The position numbers were made by a program, and so were the translations under genes. The notes under the pieces are model-generated. The model ran no database searches, had not been told where the DNA came from, and worked only from the letters and a program-made list of their open reading frames with translations. A stretch of 59,835 nt of DNA from a phage: the sequence record PZ445421.1. One strand, given 5' to 3'. Shown here in pieces: positions 1-54,809 of the stretch (position 1 is its first letter; the number at the start of each line of letters is the position of its first letter).

Positions 1-1599
1 ATGGACTCAATGATTCAAACACCGTCCACTAAGGTAGTATGGAAACCACATCCAGGATCTCAAGTACTGGCACTGAGTTGTCCAGCAGATGAGATTTTAT
101 ATCATGGTACTCGTGGCCCTGGAAAGACCGATGCTCAGTTGATGCGTTTTCGTCGTTATGTTGGCATGGGGTATGGTAAACACTGGCGCGGTATCATTTT
201 TGACCGAGAATACAAAAACTTAGATGACTTAGTTGCAAAGTCACAGCGTTGGTTTCCTGAATTTAATGATGGTTGTAAATTCTTATCTTCCAAGTCAGAT
301 TATAAATGGGTGTGGCCTAGCGGCGAAGAACTAATGTTCCGTGTTGCTAAAAAGCCTAAGGATTACTGGCTGTACCACGGTCAGGAATTTCCATTTATTG
401 GATGGAACGAATTAACTAAATATCCTGATAGTGGGCTTTATGAAGCAATGAAGTCCTGTAACCGTACATCATTTGTTGCAGAAGAAAACCCGATAATTAT
501 TGACGGTGATGTGTATCGGAGAACTGGACGTCTTGTGCTTGTTCAGCCAGACCATGAATACGCAATGCAGTTCATACTGCCACCTTTGCCGTTGCAGATC
601 TTTTCTACGACTAACCCATTTGGAGTTGGACATAACTGGGTCAAGAAATATTTTATTAACTCTTGCCCTCTTGGGTCCATGAAGAAGGAAGTGACAAACG
701 TCTTCAACCCGCGTACACAGAAACGGGAAGACGTAGTTCGAACTCGCTGCCATATATTTGGTTCGTATCGAGAGAACCGCAACTTGACACCAGAATATGT
801 TGCGCAGCTTGTAAACATTGACGATCCTAACCTCCGTATGGCATGGCTCGGTGGTAGCTGGGATATTACGTCAGGTGGGATGTTCGACGACCTGTGGCGC
901 CAGAATATACATGTGGTCAAACCATTTCCAATACCTCACTCCTGGAGAATTGATAGATCATTTGACTGGGGCTCAAGTAAACCGTTCTCTGTTGGTTGGT
1001 GGGCAAGAAGTGATGGTAGCGATATCGTGTATCCAAATGGGCGTCGTGTACGAACAGTACGAGGTGACTTATTTAGGATCATGGAATGGTATGGTACTAA
1101 CGGAAAACCGAACGAAGGTTTAAGATTATTGGATTCTGAAATTGCTCGTGGTATCATCGTCAGGGAAATTGAAGCTGGTTTATACGGTCGCGTAGTTCCA
1201 GGCCCTGCTGATAACAGCATTTGGGACGTTAAGGACGGTAACAGTACCGCAGCAACAATGTCTAAGCCAATAACTATCAATGGTCGGTCTTATCCTGGTG
1301 TACAGTGGATCCGAAGTGATAAATCCCCTGGATCACGTAAAGCAGGTTGGAAGCGAATGCGGGAATATTTAGCTGCTTCAATTCCGGATCCTAAGGTTGC
1401 CGCTTTGCGTGAAAGACCTTCTATGTTTATTTTTGACAACTGTCATCATTTTATAGATCTTGTTCCAACTCTTGCTAGAGACGAAGATGATCTTGATGAT
1501 GTCGATACTGATTCTGAGGACCACATTGCTGACGAAGCTCGTTATCGCGTAGCCAACGAAGCACGTGGCGGTAGTATCGGTAAGACTGTTGGAACATAA
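1..1599 (+). CDS. terL: terminase large subunit
   Basis: 532-aa ORF with N-terminal P-loop 'GTRGPGKT', Walker-B-like 'FIGWNE' and acidic C-terminal nuclease-like region; followed 12 nt later by the portal gene; small-terminase-like ORF lies at the window 3' end. Confidence 0.85.
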   Translation: MDSMIQTPSTKVVWKPHPGSQVLALSCPADEILYHGTRGPGKTDAQLMRFRRYVGMGYGKHWRGIIFDREYKNLDDLVAKSQRWFPEFNDGCKFLSSKSDYKWVWPSGEELMFRVAKKPKDYWLYHGQEFPFIGWNELTKYPDSGLYEAMKSCNRTSFVAEENPIIIDGDVYRRTGRLVLVQPDHEYAMQFILPPLPLQIFSTTNPFGVGHNWVKKYFINSCPLGSMKKEVTNVFNPRTQKREDVVRTRCHIFGSYRENRNLTPEYVAQLVNIDDPNLRMAWLGGSWDITSGGMFDDLWRQNIHVVKPFPIPHSWRIDRSFDWGSSKPFSVGWWARSDGSDIVYPNGRRVRTVRGDLFRIMEWYGTNGKPNEGLRLLDSEIARGIIVREIEAGLYGRVVPGPADNSIWDVKDGNSTAATMSKPITINGRSYPGVQWIRSDKSPGSRKAGWKRMREYLAASIPDPKVAALRERPSMFIFDNCHHFIDLVPTLARDEDDLDDVDTDSEDHIADEARYRVANEARGGSIGKTVGT

Positions 1600-3268: not shown

Positions 3269-4147
3269 ATGAACAAATATCACATTCATCTAGCGGTAGC
3301 TTATTCCGCTGGCTTCTTCCAGTCTATGCCTCGTTTTGGTGCATTGGAACTTGAATATACTTCTGAAGATGAAATCCCGGAAAACGCGCGTGAGTATTAT
3401 TCCCAAGAAGGCGATAAGTGGATCCTCACTGGTGTAAAGGGTGGTGGCAAACAGAATATTGACAGGTTGCAATCTGCACTTGAAAAAGAACGCAACGATC
3501 ATAAAGCGGTCAAGAGTAAGCTAAGTAAGCTGAACGGACGTGATATTGACGAACTCTTGCAGCGCGACGCTGAATATGAAGAGCTTAAACTGCGTGCGGA
3601 TAAAGTTGATGATGAAAAGTTGGAGCAAATCATTAACGTACGAATCCGTAACAAGTTAACTCCGCTTGAGCGTGAACGTGACGAGCTGAAAAACAAACTT
3701 TCTACCTATGAGAAGCAAGTAGAAGAGCTGACCACAAAAGAGAAGAACCGCATCGTTAAGACCGCTCTTAGCAAGGCTGCAATGTCTGCTAAAGTGATCA
3801 CGGAAGCTATTGACGACGTGGAACTGATTGGTTCTCGTTTGTTTGAGCTCACCGAAGACGGTCAGGTTGTGACACGCGACGGTGTGGGCGTAACTCCTGG
3901 CATCACTCCAGAAATGTGGTTACAGGACATTCAAGATAAGAAACCTCACTGGTTCCCTGGAAACGTTGGCGGTGGTGCTGGTGGCTCGCGTACTCCTGGC
4001 GCTGCTGGTAAGAACCCGTGGAGTGCCGACGGTTGGAACCTTACTGAGCAGGGTAAAATTCTTCGTGAAAATCCTGAAAAAGCAGGCCGTTTGGCAGCCA
4101 TGGCTGGTGTGGACTTGAAGCGTCCAGTACGTCCAGTTAAAAAATAA
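3269..4147 (+). CDS. putative head scaffolding protein
   Basis: Track ORF 3242..4147 begins at GTG; internal ATG at 3269 has SD 'GGAG'; long charged coiled-coil-like central region and Gly-rich C-terminus, positioned between portal and major capsid genes. Confidence 0.5.
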   Translation: MNKYHIHLAVAYSAGFFQSMPRFGALELEYTSEDEIPENAREYYSQEGDKWILTGVKGGGKQNIDRLQSALEKERNDHKAVKSKLSKLNGRDIDELLQRDAEYEELKLRADKVDDEKLEQIINVRIRNKLTPLERERDELKNKLSTYEKQVEELTTKEKNRIVKTALSKAAMSAKVITEAIDDVELIGSRLFELTEDGQVVTRDGVGVTPGITPEMWLQDIQDKKPHWFPGNVGGGAGGSRTPGAAGKNPWSADGWNLTEQGKILRENPEKAGRLAAMAGVDLKRPVRPVKK

Positions 4148-4285: not shown

Positions 4286-5389
4286 ATGTCTAAAATTCTG
4301 TCAGCTCCGATGCTTAATTTACGAGCTACAAATTCAATTCTTCTGTCTGCTGTTCGTCGTGGTGCGATCACTGAACTTGCAGATGTTATCGTTCCAGAGA
4401 TCTTCGTACCATATGTGCAGAACCGCACAACTGAAAAGTCCCGACTGATTCAGTCTGGTGCTATTGAGATTTCTGAGCGTCTTAACGCTGCATTGATGGG
4501 TGAAGGTACTACCTTTAACCAGCGTTTCTTTAAAGACCTGGATCGTGACGAAGAAAACGTTTCAAGCGCAAGCGATGCAACCGATTCTACTCCTGGCGGT
4601 ATCAAATCCGGGCGTGAAATCCAGATCCGTCTGTCCCGTAACCATTCATGGGGTTCTGCGGACCTGCTGGACAGCCTGATCTCCCCTGACCCGCTGGATG
4701 CTATCATCAATCTGGTGGCAAGCTACCGTCAGAGCCGTCTGCAACGTGCATTCGTTGCAACTGTAGGCGGTGTGTTTGCTATGAACGCCGCTGCTCCGAC
4801 TGGTTCCGGTGATAAGAAGTCCACCCATGTTCAGAACGATATGACCCATGACATCTCTGGTTCATCCTTCACCGATGGTGTGACTAACTTCAACCCGGCC
4901 GGTGTTATCCTGGCTGCTGGTACTATGGGTGACTCCCTGAACGAGCTGTCTATGATGATGGTACACAGTGTGGTATACCAGCGTATGCAGCTTATGAACC
5001 TGATCGACTTCATCCCGGATGCTCGTGCTGAAGTAATGATCCCGACCTACATGGGCCGTGAAGTTATCGTTGATGATATGATGCCTCACGATGGTGGTAA
5101 GTACGAAACCTGGCTGGTTGGTCGTGGTGCATTCCAGTTAGGTGTCGGTTCACCGAAAGTTCCTGTTGAAACTGAACGTAAACCTGCATCCTACAAAGGT
5201 GGTGGTTCTGAAATCCTGTTCCACCGCTGGGAAAACATCATTCACCCTGTCGGTCACGCATGGGTTGGTACTGCTGCTGAAGGTGGTCCGGATAACGCCG
5301 CTCTGAAGACTGCTACTAACTGGGCTCGTGTATTCCCTGAGCGTAAACAGATTAAGATTGCTCGCCTGATCACTCGCGAACACGCTTAA
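4286..5389 (+). CDS. major capsid protein
   Basis: Track ORF 4154..5389 starts at TTG inside the hairpin; internal ATG 4286 has SD 'GGAGA'; 367 aa, position after scaffold, followed by strong terminator. Confidence 0.7.
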   Translation: MSKILSAPMLNLRATNSILLSAVRRGAITELADVIVPEIFVPYVQNRTTEKSRLIQSGAIEISERLNAALMGEGTTFNQRFFKDLDRDEENVSSASDATDSTPGGIKSGREIQIRLSRNHSWGSADLLDSLISPDPLDAIINLVASYRQSRLQRAFVATVGGVFAMNAAAPTGSGDKKSTHVQNDMTHDISGSSFTDGVTNFNPAGVILAAGTMGDSLNELSMMMVHSVVYQRMQLMNLIDFIPDARAEVMIPTYMGREVIVDDMMPHDGGKYETWLVGRGAFQLGVGSPKVPVETERKPASYKGGGSEILFHRWENIIHPVGHAWVGTAAEGGPDNAALKTATNWARVFPERKQIKIARLITREHA

Positions 5390-5407
5390 TGCTTTAGCCA
5401 TGTAATT

Positions 5408-5434
5408 AAAGGGGCCTATATGGTCCCTTTTTGT
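5408..5434 (+). terminator. rho-independent terminator
   Basis: AAAGGGGCC-tatat-GGTCCCTTT then TTTTG, immediately after capsid stop. Confidence 0.6.
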
Positions 5435-27858: not shown

Positions 27859-28386
27859 TTATTTGCAATAGTTAACATGGCATTTGGACGTTTCTTCAAT
27901 GGTGCATTCTACCAATTCAACACCATATTGGTCAAGCAGTTGAGGACCAATTACGTCAACCATATATGCAGCTAAGTTTTCCGCAGTTGGGTTGAATGGT
28001 AAACACACCATAGACCTGAAGAAATGACGGGCGTCTTCATTTGCAACCGTCAAAGGCGTATGATGAGTCTGATCATGATCAACAAGAACCTTAATACCGC
28101 GGATGAGTTCATCTTTCTCCCAATGCAGGAATTTATGATCCCAGTTATCTTCCAACCACTGGCAAAGCGTAGTTTTAACCACACTAAAGTCGATAACACG
28201 ACCTACGTCGTCCAGTTGCTTAAGGGCCGCAAATTCAGCTTCGTCCATGACTTTATAAGGGACTTTCGGCGCAACCTTAAAGTGAAACTTATAGTTGTGC
28301 CCGTGCAGGTGGCGGCACTTACTTTCATGGCCAACTACACGATGGCCAGCGCAAATCTCATGTGAACGGATTACTTCGTAGCTCAT
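27859..28386 (-). CDS. queD: 6-carboxy-5,6,7,8-tetrahydropterin synthase
   Basis: 'CAGHRVVGHESKCRHLHGHNYKF' matches the QueD/PTPS zinc-binding His motif. Confidence 0.85.
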   Translation of the reverse strand: MSYEVIRSHEICAGHRVVGHESKCRHLHGHNYKFHFKVAPKVPYKVMDEAEFAALKQLDDVGRVIDFSVVKTTLCQWLEDNWDHKFLHWEKDELIRGIKVLVDHDQTHHTPLTVANEDARHFFRSMVCLPFNPTAENLAAYMVDVIGPQLLDQYGVELVECTIEETSKCHVNYCK

Positions 28387-50258: not shown

Positions 50259-50722
50259 TTCCTCCAGATATCACGCGATTCTTTAATACGGATGTTGTAC
50301 CGTATAAGTTGTTGCATAATTTTATGCAGGTCATCGAGATGCTTCCTTAAACGAAGGCGTTTCTTGATAGCCCACAGGTTCTTCATATCCGTTCGTTGCA
50401 GATCCTCCCTTAAATACAATGAAAAGTCAGTCTGCCGATCTAAGATAAATTGGATACGCATCAAAGTATCTGACTTACGATAATCAGGATACCATTTAGG
50501 AAGAAGATCTTGTTCGTGAATCACCTTATGCTCCAAACTGATCAATGTACTCAATGAGCTCTTGCAATTCTTGCTGTAACTGCACATTACCACTATTATT
50601 CGTCTGAAGTCTAACGAGGCATTCCTTGATATGTGTAATGTGGTTAGCACCCATCCGACGCTTCTGTACATCGCACCAGCGAACAACACCATCTTCAATA
50701 TACGCACGACGCGCTTTACCAC
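50255..50722 (-). CDS. hypothetical basic protein (start uncertain)
   Basis: Track ORF overlaps the upstream gene by ~200 nt; the true start is probably an internal Met. Confidence 0.35.
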   Translation of the reverse strand: MVKRVVRILKMVLFAGAMYRSVGWVLTTLHISRNASLDFRRIIVVMCSYSKNCKSSLSTLISLEHKVIHEQDLLPKWYPDYRKSDTLMRIQFILDRQTDFSLYLREDLQRTDMKNLWAIKKRLRLRKHLDDLHKIMQQLIRYNIRIKESRDIWRK

Positions 50723-51146
50723 GCGGGTATCTCAGTGGCCGAACTTCACACTTATCGCCAACCCACTTAAAGCCCAGGATCATAACAGCGTTACCTTCCG
50801 TATCAGGACACACGTCAAAGCAACTGTTGAACCCTTTACTGTGCATATACTTGTCCAGCGGAATCACACAATCCACATCTAACAACCAGTACCCGAAGTA
50901 AATGTCAACAGTAAACATCATCCCAAGCATCGGAGCCGACCAGCACATATACATCCGCCCGTCATCCAACTTCTTGACAGCATTCGGCCGCAACATCAGG
51001 CCAGCCGCCTTCCACGCTTTGACCACATTACTTAGGCTGTCATTATGCTGTTCTAATATGTCTACCGCTTTGGCGTACATTTCTTCGTTATAACCGAACA
51101 TTTCCTGTACGTGTGCGTGCGTTATTTCAATATTACTATTCCGCAT
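50526..51146 (-). CDS. hypothetical protein (first gene of the leftward operon)
   Basis: Track ORF to 51197 (TTG); ATG 51146 with SD 'GGTGAGG'. Confidence 0.5.
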   Translation of the reverse strand: MRNSNIEITHAHVQEMFGYNEEMYAKAVDILEQHNDSLSNVVKAWKAAGLMLRPNAVKKLDDGRMYMCWSAPMLGMMFTVDIYFGYWLLDVDCVIPLDKYMHSKGFNSCFDVCPDTEGNAVMILGFKWVGDKCEVRPLRYPRGKARRAYIEDGVVRWCDVQKRRMGANHITHIKECLVRLQTNNSGNVQLQQELQELIEYIDQFGA

Positions 51147-51312
51147 AACCTCACCCTTGATAATAATAATCGACCGATTTTGAAATTCAGTTGCCAAGTT
51201 TTAATTTATGCGAAGTTTTTGCTATTTGCAATTGTGACATTTTGCGGTGTTTGTATGTGCAATGTTTTTGCTTTTGCAAAAATTACAACAGTCTGAAGGT
51301 GAGAAATTGTAC

Positions 51313-51520
51313 ATTTATAAAGATCGGTGAAAAAATGCACAATTTATAAAGACCCCGTAATACATAAAACGGCGAAGCGAAGTGTATGAAAAATAAGGGA
51401 AAATTTCGAGGGTTTGGGGGAACGTGTGAATTTATAAATTTTATAAAGGGGTCTCGTAGGGGTCGTCAGTAGACAACTCAAAAACAAAAAATCTTTATAC
51501 AATTTATATAAATACACACA
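51313..51520. repeat. AT-rich region with repeated ACAnTTTATAAAGA / TTTATAAA motifs and GGGGTC direct repeats
   Basis: TTTATAAAG at ~51314, ~51353, ~51441; GGGGTCTCGTAGGGGTCGTC at 51448-51467; (CA)n-like run near 51513. Confidence 0.5.
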
Positions 51521-51559
51521 TACACACATTTTTTACCTTATTTTTCATGCACTTACCTC

Positions 51560-52120
51560 CTTTCATTTCGTATATTAAGCGTTAATACATGAGCAATATA
51601 ACATATATTTGTTGCGCAACGACTGTGTGTTTTCTAACCAATCGAAAGATTGCTTTATATACGTCCGCGCGTCTAACACAAAAGAAAAGTAGATTGCAAG
51701 CGATTTTTGCTGATGTAACTCTCGAAGTGAAAGCGATTTGCGAGGTTGAAATTTTGTAGCCCGAAAACGATTCTATTTTATGGTATAAATGTCGGATTTT
51801 TCGGTGAAAGCTGGCTTTTCGGTGAGGTTGGGTGGCTGGGATCGGGGTAACGGGTAGCCCATAAAGCGAAAATAGCCGCGAAAACGGGGCACGTAGCGCG
51901 ATTAAATGGTTGGATCGGTGTAAGGGTGGCGGTGAGGGGCGAAAATGCCGCAAAATCGCGTACAGGGAAGCAGGGAGTGGATGGCTGTAAGGGCGTATAA
52001 GGCGACTAAATTGGAGTCTATGGTAATGTATGGAAGAAGGATTCAGGTTCTTAGAGCGCGAATGGTGGAGCTATGGGTGAGGAATATGTGGTCAGCAGGG
52101 TAACGCGGGAGGTGGTGCGG
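51560..52120. other. ORF-poor, strongly purine/G-rich (plus strand) region with many short direct repeats
   Basis: Repeats TTTTCGGTGA x2, GCGAAAAT x2, TGTAAGGG x2, GGTAACG x2; the minus strand is C/T-rich and G-poor. Confidence 0.45.
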
Positions 52121-52122
52121 GT

Positions 52123-52159
52123 ACAAAAACGAAAACGCCCCGTTGGACTTCAACAGGGC
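52123..52159 (-). terminator. rho-independent terminator (minus strand)
   Basis: Minus strand CGCCCUGUUG-aaguc-CAACGGGGCG followed by UUUUCGUUUUUGU. Confidence 0.65.
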
Positions 52160-52184
52160 GCGGATTCTAAAATGGTTTTAGAAG

Positions 52185-52433
52185 TTATTTACAAGTTAAT
52201 AGTACCGCCCAGGTATTATCTGGAAGCGTACCAATTCCACGGATTTTCAACTGGAGCGACTGGTGCTGCATGTTGTAGTTGTCTAGTAACTCCTGGGCCG
52301 CGGCAGCGGCGTTCGCTTCACTGTTGAGGCTGTAGTCGTTACTCGTTACCGCGCACATACCGAGACCAACTGCTTTGAAGCGCAAACCTTTGGATTGAGT
52401 CGGTGCGAGTGCTTTGACATGGATAGCTTGCAT
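52185..52433 (-). CDS. small protein (82 aa), paralog of 52963..53211
   Basis: Shared N-terminus 'M(A)QAI..K.LAPT.S.G.R.KA' and shared C-terminal pattern with the second copy. Confidence 0.55.
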   Translation of the reverse strand: MQAIHVKALAPTQSKGLRFKAVGLGMCAVTSNDYSLNSEANAAAAAQELLDNYNMQHQSLQLKIRGIGTLPDNTWAVLLTCK

Positions 52434-52462
52434 ATTATATATCTCCGTTACAATTTGAAAGG

Positions 52463-52720
52463 TTAGCAGTTTTTTAACAGGTTGATGAAGCCCGCCAGCG
52501 TGGACGCTGTTGCAACCAGGCGGCCTATAGTATGCAGTTCCGCGTGAACTTTACCGTCGTCAAATACAGTTAAATAAACGTTAAGACCATTGCAACGGAC
52601 GCGATATTTGCGCGCGTTATTACCGAAAGTTTCTAGCTCTGCGGTGATAGTCGCGAGATTAGCTATACGTTTTCCGATAATACGGCGAGTGATAGTGGAC
52701 TGGTTTAATACTGTAGACAT
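52463..52720 (-). CDS. hypothetical protein (85 aa)
   Basis: First gene downstream of palindromic promoter module 1. Confidence 0.5.
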   Translation of the reverse strand: MSTVLNQSTITRRIIGKRIANLATITAELETFGNNARKYRVRCNGLNVYLTVFDDGKVHAELHTIGRLVATASTLAGFINLLKNC

Positions 52721-52751
52721 AATAATTTCCTCTGTTAACTATGAGAAGTGC

Positions 52752-52780
52752 ATATTATTGCCCACTGTTACTATGGGCAA
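52752..52780 (-). promoter_or_regulatory. promoter with embedded palindromic operator (TTGCCCA-N9-TGGGCAA), copy 1
   Basis: Minus strand reads TTGCCC-N17-TAATAT; the palindrome overlaps the -35/spacer; ~30 nt upstream of ATG 52720. Confidence 0.5.
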
Positions 52781-52788
52781 TGTATATG

Positions 52789-52953
52789 TCACTCAGCGGA
52801 AACATATTCTAACGCTTCTGATAGTGTAGCGAAGTGACCATCACTCACCAGATTAATAGCGTATTCAAGTTGATCGCGGGTCAGGTTGCGAAACTTGTTA
52901 CGGATGTGATAGCAACGACCGCGATAAATAAGCTGGAAATAGTTGCGTTCCAT
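52789..52953 (-). CDS. small ORF (54 aa), below track cutoff
   Basis: ATG 52953 with SD 'GAGGGA' overlapping the stop of the upstream paralog; encodes MERNYFQLIYRGRCYHIRNKFRNL... Confidence 0.3.
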   Translation of the reverse strand: MERNYFQLIYRGRCYHIRNKFRNLTRDQLEYAINLVSDGHFATLSEALEYVSAE

Positions 52954-52962
52954 AATTATCCC

Positions 52963-53211
52963 TCATGCAGTGATAATGAAGGAGTAACCGCTTTGATCCG
53001 GGAGCTCACCACCAGCGAGGATCTTAAACTCGGCGTCCATTTTAGCGTTTAACTTTTTGACCAGCTCTTCCACTGCGGCGCGATGGTTGCCGTATGTGTC
53101 CAACTGGTAACTCCAGGCAATAGTCACGGAACTATTCCAGCACGTTGCTTTTACACGATCGCCACGGGACATAGTTGGAGCCAGGAATTTAGTGATAATT
53201 GCTTGTGCCAT
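52963..53211 (-). CDS. small protein (82 aa), paralog of 52185..52433
   Basis: See paralog above. Confidence 0.55.
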   Translation of the reverse strand: MAQAIITKFLAPTMSRGDRVKATCWNSSVTIAWSYQLDTYGNHRAAVEELVKKLNAKMDAEFKILAGGELPDQSGYSFIITA

Positions 53212-53216
53212 GATAA

Positions 53217-53402
53217 TTACTCCGGTAAAATTACAGTGACGTTAATATTTGCAATGCGAGCGCACTCGCGGAAACCTTTTACATAAGCATCCATTTCGTC
53301 ATAGGATGCGAAAGTTGCGTCCGGGACTGGTCCGTTGTTAATATTCACGCAATATTCATGTTCGTCCAGGTCAACCCAACAATTCAGAACGATAGTTTCC
53401 AT
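53217..53402 (-). CDS. hypothetical protein (61 aa)
   Basis: Track ORF 53217..53435; ATG 53402 with SD 'GGAGGG'. Confidence 0.45.
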   Translation of the reverse strand: METIVLNCWVDLDEHEYCVNINNGPVPDATFASYDEMDAYVKGFRECARIANINVTVILPE

Positions 53403-53403
53403 A

Positions 53404-53478
53404 TTATTTGCCCTCCGTATAGTACAGACCTGCAACTATTGGAGCTCCGAATACCAAGAACGCTAATAAGTAGAACAT
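53404..53478 (-). CDS. hydrophobic micro-peptide (24 aa), below track cutoff
   Basis: ATG 53478 with SD 'AAGGGGG'; encodes MFYLLAFLVFGAPIVAGLYYTEGK; sits exactly between two genes. Confidence 0.3.
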   Translation of the reverse strand: MFYLLAFLVFGAPIVAGLYYTEGK

Positions 53479-53480
53479 AA

Positions 53481-53960
53481 TTAGTTGCCCCCTTTATTGT
53501 TGAGCCCGTTGAATTTACGCCATGCGTAGAATTCAATCGTTGCATTATTAATATTCCAACCATTAGCTTTCGCAAGGTCACGGACGTTACCAATAGTTGG
53601 CACACTATCAGGTAACATATTATCCAGGGCATTCCAAACGTCTGCGCATTTACCTTTAATCGGGCGACGGACCCCGTTGCGCGTTTCGCTGCGCGTTTTA
53701 CCTTTGGCGGGAGCGACCGGAGCTTGTTGTGTGGTCACTTCCACGACAGTCGCTTTATCAGCTTCAACCAGATCGTTAGCCGCCTTATTAACCGCGCTTT
53801 CGCTGTACCAGTAGCGGCCACCGTCTTCGTGCGGTTCCTGGTGAATAAAGCTGTTAGCTGTCGCTGTGTCTACGTCCAGAACCTTTTTCAAGGCACGGCG
53901 AGCGTTAGACATGTTGGTGAAAAAGCGAGCATCTTTTGCTACGCGAGTGATAGTAACCAT
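53481..53960 (-). CDS. hypothetical protein (159 aa)
   Basis: Track ORF to 53975; ATG 53960 is served by the 'GGAG' that follows the first ATG. Confidence 0.5.
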   Translation of the reverse strand: MVTITRVAKDARFFTNMSNARRALKKVLDVDTATANSFIHQEPHEDGGRYWYSESAVNKAANDLVEADKATVVEVTTQQAPVAPAKGKTRSETRNGVRRPIKGKCADVWNALDNMLPDSVPTIGNVRDLAKANGWNINNATIEFYAWRKFNGLNNKGGN

Positions 53961-53993
53961 TGTGAATATCTCCATGCTGTTCTAGCGGATTGC

Positions 53994-54022
53994 ATATTTT
54001 TGCCCACTGCGACAATGGGCAA
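53994..54022 (-). promoter_or_regulatory. promoter with embedded palindromic operator (TTGCCCA-N9-TGGGCAA), copy 2
   Basis: Minus strand TTGCCC-N17-AAATAT; near-identical ~45-bp module to copy 1, including the flanking GTATATGTCA. Confidence 0.5.
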
Positions 54023-54034
54023 AGTATATGTCAA

Positions 54035-54208
54035 TCAACTATCTTGTATATTGTCCAGTAGATGCGCGAGCAGATCCAGCTGGCTCTTGGTTTTGAGAGC
54101 TTCTTCTCCGGTTTGCTCTTCGTACTCGTTGTAGAGCGTAACATACAACCATTGAAACAGGTCTTCAGCAATAAGGCACTGAGAGTCGGTTAGTTGGATG
54201 GTTTTCAT
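54035..54208 (-). CDS. small acidic ORF (57 aa), below track cutoff
   Basis: ATG 54208 with SD 'AAGGGGA'; its 3' end overlaps promoter module 2. Confidence 0.35.
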   Translation of the reverse strand: MKTIQLTDSQCLIAEDLFQWLYVTLYNEYEEQTGEEALKTKSQLDLLAHLLDNIQDS

Positions 54209-54390
54209 GGTGTTCCCCTTCGGGTGAGGCGGGCGCGGAACCCGTGTCCCGCTTAAAAACCCCCTTTACCCTACGCAGTTATAATAGGACAACTGGGTAT
54301 CAGATGCAACTATTATCTGCATTATTTTAGAACTTTTTTAGTTGTGTTTCGTAATAATAACATCCGGTACTATGCGGTAGATGGTGTGCC

Positions 54391-54470
54391 GGAAATACCA
54401 GGTAGCGCGAGCGTGTCGAAAATACCAGGTAACAGCACGCGCCGAAAATACCAGGTAGCACATACATAGA
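54391..54470. repeat. iteron array: three direct repeats with 26-bp period (core GAAA(A)TACCAGGTARC)
   Basis: Units begin at 54392, 54418 and 54444; read directly. Confidence 0.7.
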
Positions 54471-54506
54471 CAGCACATAGTGGGCAGGTGGATAGTAACA
54501 GATGCA

Positions 54507-54531
54507 ACTATACTGGACGGTACAGTATAGT
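54507..54531. repeat. palindrome ACTATACTG-N7-CAGTATAGT
   Basis: Read directly; the 13-mer CAGATGCAACTAT also occurs twice (54301 and 54499). Confidence 0.5.
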
Positions 54532-54809
54532 CGTGTAATAGATAGCATACTAATCAAATAAAAATAATAACGCGTGTAACAATAAACAACGTTATAGTAG
54601 AGCGAGTGACAGTCACATGACGTAACAATCACCTCACTGACGATCACGGGACGTTATAGTAACGCCGCGGGGCGGCTCTTAGATCTCTGCCAAGGATTCT
54701 TCGTTTGTAGATTATCTCGTCACTAGACACTTTATATCCTCACCTCACCTGCCCTATATTGTTCGTATAAAGTTAATTCCGTATGTAAATACTCGAGAGG
54801 AGATCTATT

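What the first reader, a model, noticed from the sequence alone, without database searches (positions are those of the whole stretch)
51198..52120. ~0.9-kb ORF-poor region: AT-rich repeat block followed by a strand-asymmetric purine-rich block
51.3-51.5 kb holds several copies of ACAnTTTATAAAGA, tandem GGGGTC repeats and a CA-rich run. 51.56-52.12 kb is G/purine-rich on the plus strand (C-rich and G-poor on the leftward transcript) with many 8-12-bp direct repeats. The only track ORFs here look non-coding. The C-rich leftward RNA downstream of the 52123-52159 terminator resembles a Rho-utilisation region; alternatively the block is a replication origin, packaging site or structured RNA.
Basis: seen in the sequence. 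Interest (0 to 1): 0.5.

Follow-up and report, generated by a model that had tools for sequence, protein, structure and literature searches.

The report
Phage genome end and untranslated leader
This gene-free stretch of a 9g-like coliphage contains the spot where the packaged DNA molecule begins (the left edge of a 3.2-kb terminal repeat), followed by a conserved untranslated purine-rich leader; it is a real and functionally constrained feature, but of a known general kind.

Summary
The window is Escherichia phage FritzHoffmann (Nonagvirus). The gap is non-coding yet more conserved than the flanking genes. Its main identity is the left boundary of a long direct terminal repeat (DTR). Relatives HdSG1 and HdK1 are deposited with perfect 3,363/3,367-bp DTRs. 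Their left ends map to window 51440/51443, inside the TTTATAAAG/GGGGTC block, and their right end maps to window 54678. That right end is the same base as the read-start hot spot published for phage 9g. A Seuratvirus record (ECP2304, 3,695-bp DTR) puts its left end in the equivalent gap. The terminus lies inside a conserved 175-bp imperfect palindrome. The purine-rich block is the untranslated stretch downstream of the intrinsic terminator that ends the DTR's leftward operon. It has the most extreme G-C skew in the genome. Its leftward RNA would be 36% C and 14% G and shows no excess structure, so it looks like a Rho-loading site. Two islands within it are still about 70% identical in a different genus, which implies an additional sequence-specific role that remains unknown. 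Structured RNA, protein coding, Chi sites and DnaA boxes are rejected. An origin function is untested. Verdict: a real feature, a new member of a known kind (a T5-type long-DTR boundary region).

The parts
51198..51333 (-). Promoter-like elements for the leftward early operon, whose first gene is bas20_0069 (ATG at 51146). They are a tandem 29-nt repeat (51198-51226 and 51247-51275) reading TTGCAA-17-TAAATT and TTGCAA-17-ATACAA on the minus strand, and TTTTCA-16-TACAAT at 51333..51306. All lie outside the DTR.
   Evidence: Repeat family D2, promoter scan hit and direct reading of the minus strand. Promoter function is inferred. The scan as a whole is not enriched over shuffles (14 found vs 9.5 +/- 3.2).
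51304..51352 (+). Two copies of ACA(N)TTTATAAAGA (51311-51323 and 51339-51352), with an overlapping 13-nt inverted repeat AAATTGTACATTT/AAATGCACAATTT.
   Evidence: The region is 94-96% identical across relatives.
51380..51554 (.). A 175-bp imperfect palindrome spanning the DTR boundary. The outer arms are AAGTGYATGAAAAATAAGGKAAAA (51380-51403 and 51531-51554). Nested arms lie at 51424-51448 and 51493-51517. The left arm is outside the DTR and the right arm inside it, so the palindrome is intact only at the concatemer junction and at the inner edge of the right DTR copy.
   Evidence: Inverted repeats I1-I3. The ssDNA fold has z = -4.96, with 0 of 200 shuffles as good. The arms are present in all 17 genomes with z of -1.8 to -7.2, and substitutions in them are not compensated.
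51440..51443 (.). Left boundary of the direct terminal repeat, which is the left physical end of the virion DNA (cut between 51439 and 51440 by homology to HdSG1; 51443 by homology to HdK1).
   Evidence: HdSG1 has a perfect 3,363-bp DTR and HdK1 a perfect 3,367-bp DTR. The first 30 nt of HdSG1 equal window 51440-51469 exactly. Those record ends were set where most reads ended abruptly (PMC6563267). The sequence just outside the cut is variable and the sequence just inside is nearly invariant.
51448..51475 (+). Tandem GGGGTC (51448 and 51459), followed by the 13-mer TCGTCAGTAGACA (51463-51475), which recurs beside the right boundary.
   Evidence: The surrounding 21-mer is invariant in all relatives. 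Kpn2-P2 carries the identical 13-mer at its right-boundary equivalent. Significance is borderline.
51477..51560 (.). Very AT-rich core just inside the left end, including the CA run at 51512-51528 and, on the minus strand, a strong SD-ATG mini-ORF.
   Evidence: 82-90% of its columns are invariant. ECP2304 (Seuratvirus) has an equivalent 19%-GC stretch just inside its left end.
51561..51673 (.). Variable spacer that exists as alternative sequence versions among relatives, with indels of 3, 8 and 10 nt.
   Evidence: 54% of its columns are variable. Identity to Fritz falls to 46-69% in several relatives.
51674..51954 (+). Conserved core of the purine/G-rich block. It holds a pair of RCAAGCGAWWT sites 33 bp apart (51695 and 51728), the stretch AAAACGATTCTATTTTAT, TTTTCGGTGA x2 (51798 and 51816), and three 16-nt TGGATCGGTGTAAGGG-like repeats (51838, 51911 and 51978, the last lying just beyond this core). 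Island A (51665-51781) is about 70% identical in Klebsiella phage Kpn2-P2.
   Evidence: Only 22% of its columns vary, against 36-39% in the flanking genes, and the variation has no codon periodicity.
51955..52134 (+). Distal part of the G-rich block. Its start lies within island B (51931-52040), which is about 71% identical in Kpn2-P2. In JenP1 it is replaced, together with the terminator and the first DTR gene, by an HNH homing-endonuclease insertion.
51700..52134 (-). Untranslated leftward RNA downstream of the terminator. Over 51700-52130 it is 36% C and 14% G, with C/G of 2-4 and 16-20 YC dimers per 78 nt, and it shows no excess structure. It is a candidate Rho-loading (rut-like) zone.
   Evidence: Rho dependence is inferred, not shown.
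52135..52161 (-). Intrinsic terminator that ends the leftward operon of small DTR genes.
   Evidence: It is annotated independently in HdSG1, HdK1 and SP8.
51440..54678 (.). The inferred direct terminal repeat (3,239 bp in this genome). It holds the untranslated leader, the terminator and about 7 small leftward genes of unknown function.
   Evidence: The right end corresponds to position 28,243 in phage 9g, which is the published read-start hot spot.
54615..54729 (+). Right DTR boundary region. The cut lies between 54678 and 54679 (...CGCGGGGCGGCTC|TTAGATCTC). About 85 bp around it are nearly invariant. The second copy of the 13-mer, TCGTCACTAGACA, is at 54717-54729.

Best explanation
The gap is the untranslated left edge of a long direct terminal repeat of about 3.24 kb (window 51440-54678) in this 9g-like siphophage.

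Shown:
- Close relatives whose ends were set from read pile-ups begin their virion DNA at window 51440-51443, inside the AT-rich TTTATAAAG/GGGGTC block.
- They end it at window 54678, the exact base that phage 9g's read data marked as a physical end.
- A phage of the sister genus has its left end in the equivalent gap.
- The region is non-coding yet more conserved than its flanking genes.

Inferred:
- The AT-rich block is the concatemer-processing site where the terminase complex cuts and the repeat is duplicated. The 175-bp palindrome that straddles the cut, the very AT-rich core just inside it, and a 13-mer shared with the right boundary would be the cis elements for recognition, strand opening or hairpin-primed synthesis, as proposed for T7.
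- The sequence to the left of the cut (51198-51333) carries the promoters of the early leftward operon.
- The purine-rich block is the untranslated stretch downstream of the intrinsic terminator that ends the leftward operon of small DTR genes. Any read-through RNA there is C-rich, G-poor, unstructured and untranslated, so Rho should load on it and stop transcription. This would insulate the DTR operon from the early operon (in the right copy and in concatemers) and from the DNA end (in the left copy).
- Two islands of that block are conserved in sequence across genera, so they probably also bind a protein. Its identity is unknown.
For: Termini:
- HdSG1 and HdK1 have perfect DTRs of 3,363 and 3,367 bp with 0 mismatches.
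- The first 30 nt of HdSG1 match window 51440-51469 exactly, and the right-end sequence matches up to window 54678.
- The ends of those records were placed where the majority of reads ended abruptly (PMC6563267).
- The 9g paper reports 91 reverse reads starting at position 28,243 and infers a terminal repeat (PMC4276943). Position 28,243 is the last base of ...GGGGCGGCTC, which is the same base as window 54678.
- Seuratvirus ECP2304 has a perfect 3,695-bp DTR whose left end lies in the equivalent gene-free gap, followed by a 19%-GC stretch and then a G-skewed stretch.
- Iggy, whose terminase large subunit (TerL) falls in a clade with the Nonagvirus/Seuratvirus TerL, has a nanopore-mapped DTR (PMC10484667).

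Conservation around the cut:
- The sequence just outside the cut is variable, while the 120 bp just inside is 94-100% identical.
- The palindrome folds with z = -4.96 and is present in all 17 genomes.
- The 13-mer TCGTCA(G/C)TAGACA is exact only at the two boundaries, and it is identical at Kpn2-P2's right-boundary equivalent.

Non-coding but constrained:
- There is no codon periodicity, and 22-27% of columns vary against 36-39% in the flanking genes.

Rut-like features:
- A terminator lies at 52161..52135.
- The skew of +0.455 is the genome's extreme, and C/G is 2-4 over about 350 nt.
- The RNA fold z-score is -0.2.
- The same transcript-sense C>G asymmetry is found in Kpn2-P2, Seurat and ECP2304, although Seuratvirus cannot be aligned with Nonagvirus here.

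Cross-genus islands:
- Window 51665-51781 and 51931-52040 are 70-71% identical in Kpn2-P2, whose primase is only 49% identical.
Against: - No read data exist here for FritzHoffmann itself. Its termini are inferred by homology, although both boundary sequences are identical to HdSG1's.
- The 9g paper reported only one hot spot, the right boundary, and did not report one at the left boundary. The HdSG1 and HdK1 left ends also differ by 3 nt, so the left cut may be less sharp than the right.
- The method used to define ECP2304's ends is unknown.
- Substitutions in the palindrome arms are not compensatory, so there is no covariation evidence for a hairpin.
- The boundary 13-mer is only borderline significant: alignment score 21 against shuffles of 13.7 +/- 2.0, with a maximum of 24 in 300. 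Kpn2-P2's gap lacks a good copy.
- A strong intrinsic terminator sits directly upstream of the proposed Rho zone, so little RNA may ever reach it.
- Composition alone does not explain why the block is 93-97% identical within the genus.
- JenP1 lacks the distal block and the terminator and is still a viable phage.
Confidence: 0.7

Rival explanations
1. The purine-rich block exists mainly as a Rho-utilisation site, and the AT-rich block is only promoter and regulatory DNA. The proximity of the genome end is incidental.
For: The leftward RNA is C-rich, G-poor, unstructured and untranslated. The asymmetry recurs in other lineages without sequence similarity. Promoter-like hexamers occur in 51198-51333.
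Against: The termini of three phages from two genera map inside the equivalent gap. The sequence changes from variable to nearly invariant exactly at the cut. Rut sites do not need 93-97% sequence identity, nor 70% identity across genera. A strong intrinsic terminator lies directly upstream.
Confidence: 0.25
2. The region is, or contains, the phage replication origin. The AT-rich core would be the unwinding element, the direct repeats would be iterons for the nearby primase-helicase, and a G-rich rightward RNA might prime through an R-loop.
For: - The core is AT-rich and repeated motifs lie on both sides of it.
- Kpn2-P2 has eight GCTAAC repeats at 14-15-bp spacing in the same place, while Fritz has different repeats. 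This is the pattern expected if the repeats co-vary with a specificity protein.
- The primase-helicase gene lies 3 kb downstream.
- The sequence TGgTATAAA, which resembles an extended -10 promoter element, sits at 51782-51790 in the most conserved 40 bp.
Against: - There are no DnaA boxes or IHF sites.
- The repeats are few, degenerate and irregularly spaced (67-73 bp).
- The candidate rightward promoters are weak, or are not conserved in relatives or in Kpn2-P2.
- No replication data exist, and the same features fit a terminase-binding region equally well.
Confidence: 0.15
3. The region is a T5-like gate for stepwise DNA entry. The right DTR copy would enter first, its small genes would be expressed as pre-early genes, and the untranslated block at the inner edge of the DTR would pause DNA transfer or transcription until those products act.
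For: T5 has large untranslated repeat regions in its DTR, one of which straddles the DTR boundary. They are more conserved than the DTR's ORFs, rich in palindromes, and split by an HNH gene in some relatives (preprint 10.1101/866236). All of these features are paralleled here. The DTR genes are small, of unknown function, and transcribed inward from the right end.
Against: The DnaA-box pairs that the T5 preprint describes in that region are absent here. Nothing is known about two-step entry in Nonagvirus. Which end enters first is also unknown.
Confidence: 0.1
4. The phage packages by the headful mechanism from a pac site at 54678, and the apparent left end is an imprecise headful cut rather than a defined DTR boundary.
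For: The 9g paper saw a single sharp hot spot only.
Against: Two phages whose unique genome lengths differ (60,232 and 60,692 bp) have left ends within 3 nt of each other at the homologous sequence, with perfect repeats. Sequence conservation changes exactly at that point. Headful ends would scatter over hundreds of bp.
Confidence: 0.05
5. The region encodes a structured non-coding RNA or small proteins.
For: Short ORFs have been annotated in the gap in some relatives. A strong SD-ATG mini-ORF lies at 51562..51504 on the minus strand.
Against: - Rfam gives no hits at E<=1.
- The fold z-scores are -0.2 and +1.3.
- There is no codon periodicity, and 1-nt indels occur, including inside the mini-ORF and the 52-aa + strand ORF.
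- The ORFs annotated in different records are at inconsistent positions.
Confidence: 0.03

Closest known systems
Long direct terminal repeats of T5-type and SPO1-type phages, including the untranslated repeat regions of the T5 terminal repeat
   Same: - The repeat is several kilobases long, exact and present at both virion ends.
- It carries small genes of unknown or host-takeover type.
- A large untranslated, repeat-rich and palindrome-rich region straddles one DTR boundary.
- That untranslated region is more conserved than the DTR's ORFs.
- Relatives carry HNH insertions in it (10.1101/866236; here).
   Different: - The repeat is 3.2-3.7 kb here, against about 10 kb in T5.
- There are no DnaA boxes.
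- There is no sequence or protein homology to T5.
- No evidence exists for two-step injection or for the site-specific nicks known in T5 DNA.
- The strongly strand-asymmetric G-rich block is not among the T5 features described in that preprint.
T7 concatemer junction and terminal-repeat duplication
   Same: The ends are defined and non-permuted, which requires cuts at both repeat boundaries and duplication of the repeat. A hairpin-capable inverted repeat lies next to the repeat; a hairpin intermediate has been reported for T7 (Chung, Nardone & Hinkle 1990, as cited in PMC9503643 and described in PMC4281155). Arrays of short repeats lie near the ends.
   Different: The T7 repeat is 160 bp and non-coding, whereas this one is 3.2 kb with genes. 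The phage is a siphovirus with an unrelated terminase. The hairpin role here is an inference without covariation support.
Phage 9g's published genome end, and the DTRs in the GenBank records of HdSG1 and HdK1
   Same: They belong to the same genus, and the sequences at both boundaries are identical or nearly so. The right boundary is the published 9g end (PMC4276943).
   Different: The 9g paper could not size the repeat or locate the second boundary. The paper describing HdSG1 and HdK1 does not discuss their DTRs. The anatomy of the left boundary (palindrome, motifs, conserved purine block) is not described in any paper in the searchable library.
Rho-dependent terminators (rut sites) of E. coli and lambda tR1
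   Same: The RNA has a long C-rich, G-poor, unstructured and untranslated segment with frequent YC dimers.
   Different: It lies immediately after an efficient intrinsic terminator. Its sequence, not only its composition, is strongly conserved. Rho dependence has not been tested.

Membership tests
Long direct terminal repeat (fixed-end, T5/SPO1-type) genome architecture | The same sequence is present at both ends of the linear virion DNA | tested here: met
   HdSG1 has a 3,363-bp repeat and HdK1 a 3,367-bp repeat, both with 0 mismatches. Seuratvirus ECP2304 has a 3,695-bp repeat with 0 mismatches. This was shown in relatives. The FritzHoffmann record holds a single copy.
Long direct terminal repeat (fixed-end, T5/SPO1-type) genome architecture | The ends are fixed and non-permuted, and are supported by read-start pile-ups | tested here: met
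   This rests on the literature. The 9g hot spot at 28,243 had 91 read starts against a mean of 2.6, and it maps to the same base as the HdSG1/HdK1 right end. The Korf et al. records were linearised where most reads ended abruptly. No reads were available for this phage.
Long direct terminal repeat (fixed-end, T5/SPO1-type) genome architecture | The boundary sequences are conserved in the genome under study | tested here: met
   A 30-mer at the left boundary and a 20-mer plus a 13-mer at the right boundary match the window exactly. The right boundary is nearly invariant in 15 genomes.
Long direct terminal repeat (fixed-end, T5/SPO1-type) genome architecture | The large terminase belongs to a clade of DTR-packaging phages | not tested
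   TerL was identified (window 1-1599, phrog_2), but no phylogeny was built. The Iggy paper places the Nonagvirus/Seuratvirus TerL in a clade with Iggy, which has a mapped 1,091-bp DTR.
Rho-dependent terminator / rut site | The RNA has a C-rich, G-poor segment of at least about 80 nt | tested here: met
   The RNA is 36% C and 14% G over 431 nt, with C/G of 2.1-4.1 in successive 78-nt windows.
Rho-dependent terminator / rut site | The RNA has little secondary structure and is not translated | tested here: met
   The fold z-score is -0.2. No conserved coding frame exists.
Rho-dependent terminator / rut site | Termination depends on Rho (bicyclomycin-sensitive 3' ends) | not testable with these tools
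   This needs transcript 3'-end mapping in infected cells.
T5 injection-stop-signal type untranslated repeat region | A large untranslated region rich in repeats and palindromes lies at a DTR boundary and is more conserved than the DTR's ORFs | tested here: met
   See, compared with the T5 preprint 10.1101/866236.
T5 injection-stop-signal type untranslated repeat region | Paired DnaA boxes (TTWTNCACA) | tested here: not met
   There are no exact DnaA boxes in 51198-52184. One-mismatch hits are at about background density: 4 in 0.99 kb, against 2.4 per kb genome-wide.
T5 injection-stop-signal type untranslated repeat region | DNA enters the cell in two steps | not testable with these tools
   This needs infection experiments.
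Iteron-type replication origin | A regular array of three or more iterons lies next to an AT-rich unwinding element | tested here: inconclusive
   There are three degenerate 16-nt repeats at 67-73-bp spacing, two 10-nt repeats and two 11-nt repeats, and an AT-rich core lies 150-400 bp away. Kpn2-P2 has a clearer array of eight GCTAAC repeats. None of this is diagnostic.
Known non-coding RNA families (Rfam 15) | A match to a covariance model | tested here: not met
   No match at E<=1 on either strand of 50500-53000.

The most novel reading that the evidence does not exclude
The conserved purine-rich block, together with the palindromic AT block, forms a cis-acting module at the inner edge of a pre-early terminal repeat. 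The module would control stepwise genome entry or the hand-over from DTR-gene expression to early-gene expression. It would be a T5-like two-stage infection programme in a small siphophage group, the Queuovirinae, where none is known, and it would use sequence elements unrelated to T5's DnaA boxes. The 13-mer shared by the two boundaries would be the first sequence-level recognition element proposed for the two cuts that generate a long DTR.
Probability: 0.12. Interest if true: 0.65.

Novelty: new member of a known kind. Interest (0 to 1): 0.4.

Why it matters
Most deposited Nonagvirus genomes, including the BASEL phages Bas19 and Bas20 (ChristophMerian and FritzHoffmann), are presented as circularly closed or arbitrarily opened sequences with a single copy of this region. 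Recognising that 51440 and 54678 are the likely physical ends has several consequences:

- The true virion genome is about 3.2 kb longer than the record.
- About seven small genes are present in two copies.
- The order in which genes enter the cell becomes definable.
- Engineering, for example genome assembly, rebooting, or deletions near the ends, must preserve these cis elements.

The work also gives a concrete and testable set of candidate cis elements for the formation of long DTRs: the palindrome, the AT core and the 13-mer. This process is poorly understood outside T7. Finally, it flags an unusually conserved non-coding block, shared across genera, whose function is open.

Tried and rejected
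- Structured ncRNA: rejected. Rfam gave nothing at E<=1, and folding of the G block on either strand is no better than shuffles.
- Protein coding: rejected. There is no 3-periodicity, 1-nt indels occur, and annotators place the ORFs inconsistently.
- Chi sites that might protect the DNA end from RecBCD: rejected. The block has no Chi or one-mismatch Chi.
- DnaA boxes or IHF sites, as in T5's injection stop signal or oriC: not enriched.
- G-quadruplex: one canonical motif lies at 51830-51856, but its second G-tract is disrupted in 9g, SE1, SP8 and PD328 (read from the alignment), so it is not a conserved feature.
- Sigma-70 promoter scan: not enriched over shuffles (14 found vs 9.5 +/- 3.2). 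The promoter assignments therefore remain inferences.
- Distant DNA search: found nothing outside the genus, and the flanking gene bas20_0069 is genus-specific. Cross-genus comparison had to be anchored on the primase instead.
- IMG/VR contigs carrying the invariant 21-mer: they added four relatives, but none of those contigs begins or ends at the termini.
- Similarity between the two DTR boundaries: only the 13-mer was found, and it is of borderline significance.
- Covariation in the palindrome arms: substitutions are few and none is compensatory.
- Literature: no paper in the library describes the left boundary or the purine-rich block.
Full report
IDENTITY AND CONTEXT

The window is Escherichia phage FritzHoffmann (Bas20, MZ501068; Nonagvirus, Queuovirinae). 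The match is 100% identical, and window coordinates equal record coordinates minus 519. The finding occupies the only large gene-free gap in a long run of minus-strand genes. It lies between bas20_0069 (window 50526-51146) and bas20_0070 (52185-52442). The large terminase gene is at window 1-1599. Plus-strand genes run from 54810 through the window's end and start to about 22.3 kb. Minus-strand genes run from 54647 back to about 22.7 kb.

CHECKING THE OBSERVATION

- TTTATAAAG occurs exactly four times in the genome, three of them at 51314, 51343 and 51440. Ten of the 46 hits with up to one mismatch (24.8 +/- 5.3 expected) fall within 51313-51661.
- Two of the three plus-strand GGGGTC copies sit 11 bp apart at 51448 and 51459.
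- The CA run is at 51512-51528.
- Repeated 7-9-mers exceed dinucleotide shuffles in the AT block (z 4.3-6.9) and in the purine core (z 4.5-5.8 for k=7-8), but not in neighbouring genes.
- The G-C skew of 51700-52129 is +0.455, the most extreme of any window of that size in the genome (range elsewhere -0.34 to +0.30). The purine fraction also peaks here.
- The terminator is real, at 52161..52135 on the minus strand.

NON-CODING BUT CONSTRAINED

I aligned 13 cultured relatives and later added four uncultivated ones.

- The flanking genes have 36-39% variable columns with strong codon periodicity (p about 1e-4 to 5e-4).
- The AT block and the purine block have only 22-27% variable columns and no periodicity (p 0.6-0.9). 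Single-base indels are scattered through them.
- Annotators of different relatives call small ORFs at inconsistent places in the AT block and none in the purine block.
- A 113-bp spacer (51561-51673) is highly variable.

The two blocks are therefore under nucleotide-level selection.

THE KEY RESULT: A GENOME TERMINUS

Two relatives, HdSG1 (63,595 bp) and HdK1 (64,059 bp), have records about 3.4 kb longer than the others, and each holds this region twice. Their record ends are perfect direct repeats of 3,363 and 3,367 bp.

- The first 30 nt of HdSG1 (TTTATAAAGGGGTCTCGTAGGGGTCGTCAG) equal window 51440-51469 exactly. HdK1 starts 3 nt further in.
- Both records end at ...CGCGGGGCGGCTC, which is window 54678.
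- The authors state that contigs were linearised at distinct start and end points where the majority of reads ended abruptly (PMC6563267). They do not discuss these repeats.
- Independently, the 9g paper found one read-start hot spot at position 28,243 (91 reverse reads against a mean of 2.6). It concluded that a terminal repeat of undetermined size exists (PMC4276943). In the 9g record, 28,243 is the last base of ...GGGGCGGCTC, the same base as the HdSG1/HdK1 right end.

The right boundary therefore has two independent supports. The left boundary, which lies inside the finding, is supported by two phage assemblies. By homology FritzHoffmann has a DTR of 3,239 bp (51440-54678).

The conservation pattern agrees with this. 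The 40 bp just left of 51440 vary among relatives, while the 120 bp just right of it are 94-100% identical. The right boundary sits in about 85 nearly invariant bp.

GENERALITY

- Seuratvirus, the sister genus, cannot be aligned here at the DNA level. Even so, Seurat has a 630-bp gap in the same position: AT-rich, full of TATAGGG/CCCTATA motifs, and ending in a G-skewed stretch.
- Seuratvirus ECP2304 is deposited with a perfect 3,695-bp DTR. Its left end lies inside the equivalent gap, followed by a 19%-GC stretch and then a stretch with skew of +0.27 to +0.43.
- Klebsiella phage vB_Kpn2-P2 (primase 49% identical) has the same layout with a 1.25-kb gap.
- The related Pseudomonas phage Iggy has an experimentally mapped 1,091-bp DTR. 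Its TerL falls in a clade with the Nonagvirus/Seuratvirus TerL (PMC10484667).

ANATOMY AROUND THE CUT

The cut lies within a 175-bp imperfect palindrome.

- The outer 24-nt arms are at 51380-51403 and 51531-51554, with nested arms at 51424-51448 and 51493-51517.
- As single-stranded DNA it folds far better than shuffles (z = -4.96, 0 of 200).
- The arms are present in all 17 genomes, but the few substitutions in them are not compensated. Paired protein-binding sites and a tolerant hairpin are therefore equally possible.
- The left arm is outside the DTR. The palindrome is thus intact only at the concatemer junction and at the inner edge of the right repeat copy.
- Kpn2-P2 also has a long-range inverted repeat bracketing its AT core.
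- A 13-mer, TCGTCA(G/C)TAGACA, occurs exactly only at 51463-51475 (24 nt right of the left cut) and at 54717-54729 (38 nt right of the right cut), on the same strand. The identical 13-mer sits at Kpn2-P2's right-boundary equivalent, with a degenerate second copy 29 bp away. Statistically this is borderline: alignment score 21 against 13.7 +/- 2.0, with a maximum of 24 in 300 shuffles. I treat it as a lead.

Duplication of a terminal repeat requires cuts at both boundaries plus DNA synthesis. For T7, a hairpin intermediate next to the repeat has been reported (described in PMC4281155 and cited in PMC9503643). The palindrome and the very AT-rich core are plausible counterparts, but this is inference.

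LEFT OF THE CUT

On the minus strand, the tandem 29-nt repeat reads TTGCAA-17-TAAATT and TTGCAA-17-ATACAA. A third hexamer pair, TTTTCA-16-TACAAT, lies at 51333..51306. All are upstream of a good Shine-Dalgarno sequence and the ATG at 51146. These are the likely promoters of the early operon. The assignment is an inference, because the scan is not enriched over shuffles.

THE PURINE-RICH BLOCK

It is the untranslated stretch downstream of the intrinsic terminator that ends the DTR's leftward operon of small genes. All of those genes belong to PHROG families of unknown function.

- Rut-like features. Leftward RNA from the block would be 36% C and 14% G, with C/G of 2-4 and 16-20 YC dimers per 78 nt for about 350 nt. 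It shows no excess structure (z = -0.2). The plus-strand RNA is not structured either (z = +1.3), and Rfam finds nothing. From established knowledge of Rho, such an untranslated RNA is a good loading substrate.
- Conserved composition. The same transcript-sense C>G asymmetry is found in Kpn2-P2, Seurat and ECP2304, even where the sequence cannot be aligned. This suggests that composition itself is selected.
- Composition is not the whole story. The block is 93-97% identical within the genus. Two islands (51665-51781 and 51931-52040) remain 70-71% identical in Kpn2-P2, as conserved as the adjacent coding DNA. They include a pair of RCAAGCGAWWT sites whose 33-bp spacing is conserved, and the stretch AAAACGATTCTATTTTAT.
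- Part of it is dispensable. In JenP1 an HNH homing-endonuclease insertion replaces everything from 51955 through the terminator and the first DTR gene. The distal part can therefore be lost.

I conclude that the block most likely acts as a transcriptional insulator (terminator plus Rho back-up) and also carries sequence-specific sites of unknown function.

ALTERNATIVES

- Replication origin: fits the AT core and the lineage-specific repeats (eight GCTAAC repeats in Kpn2-P2). But there are no DnaA or IHF sites, no convincing conserved rightward promoter, and no replication data.
- T5-like injection or expression gate: an attractive analogy, because T5's terminal repeat has conserved untranslated repeat regions at a DTR boundary (10.1101/866236). 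The DnaA-box feature fails here, and entry has not been studied.
- Headful packaging: unlikely, given that the left ends of two phages with different genome lengths agree to within 3 nt.
- Chi sites, a conserved G-quadruplex, coding capacity and structured RNA: all rejected.

VERDICT

The feature is a new, undescribed member of a known kind: the boundary region of a long direct terminal repeat. It has an unusually conserved purine-rich untranslated block whose sequence-specific function remains open. The information on the ends is implicit in three GenBank records and in one end reported for 9g, but the searchable literature does not describe it.

Noticed in passing
window 54327-54647 (minus strand; bas20_0078): This annotated 106-aa GTG-start ORF overlaps a stretch just inside the right DTR boundary that is left non-coding in HdSG1, 9g and most other relatives. 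The stretch is rich in conserved direct repeats and palindromes: AAAATACCAGGTA x2, ACGTTATAGTA x2 and ACTATACTG...CAGTATAGT. The ORF has no PHROG or Pfam hit and is probably a spurious call over a cis-acting region.
   Followed up: partly
L009 (JenP1) 4938-5411; L005 (HdK1) 3536-4015; L026 (ECP2304) 1250-1774: HNH homing-endonuclease genes sit at or next to DTR-boundary non-coding regions in several relatives. In JenP1 one replaces the distal purine block, the terminator and the first DTR gene. In HdK1 one lies just outside the right DTR boundary. T5 relatives also carry an HNH insert in their DTR repeat regions.
   Followed up: partly
window 51562-51504 (minus strand): A near-perfect Shine-Dalgarno sequence (AAGGAGGT), a 6-nt spacer and an ATG open a 14-codon mini-ORF (MKNKVKNVCMCVFI*) about 100 nt inside the left end. 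The SD and ATG are conserved, but a 1-nt deletion in most relatives changes the frame and length. The peptide is therefore not conserved, although ribosome loading at this site might be.
   Followed up: partly
window 52185-52433 and 52963-53211 (minus strand): Two of the small DTR genes are paralogues (both phrog_3199, unknown function). All DTR genes lack any functional annotation.
   Followed up: no
L022 (Klebsiella phage vB_Kpn2-P2) about 3340-3460: There is an array of eight GCTAA(C/T) repeats at 14-15-bp spacing, resembling the binding-site arrays (iterons) of replication origins. It lies between the two islands that are homologous to the window's purine block, and it is absent from the Nonagvirus genomes.
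   Followed up: no
phage 9g record KJ419279, position 28,243 (equivalent to window 54678): The 9g paper reports about 1.5-fold higher read coverage over the early-gene half of the genome, with a sharp break at the right DTR boundary. A 3.2-kb DTR does not explain this, and it remains unexplained.
   Followed up: no
L024 (Seurat) 3600-3900: More than ten copies of CCCTATA/TATAGGG lie on both strands around the inferred Seuratvirus left terminus. They may be the counterpart of the TTTATAAAG(GGGTC) motifs in Nonagvirus and of TTATAGGGGTATC in Kpn2-P2.
   Followed up: partly
whole window compared with MZ501068: The window is a rotated copy of the GenBank record (offset 519, starting at the large terminase gene) and is 1 nt longer (59,835 vs 59,834). 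Like most Nonagvirus records, the GenBank record contains only one DTR copy and is opened at an arbitrary point rather than at the physical ends.
   Followed up: no
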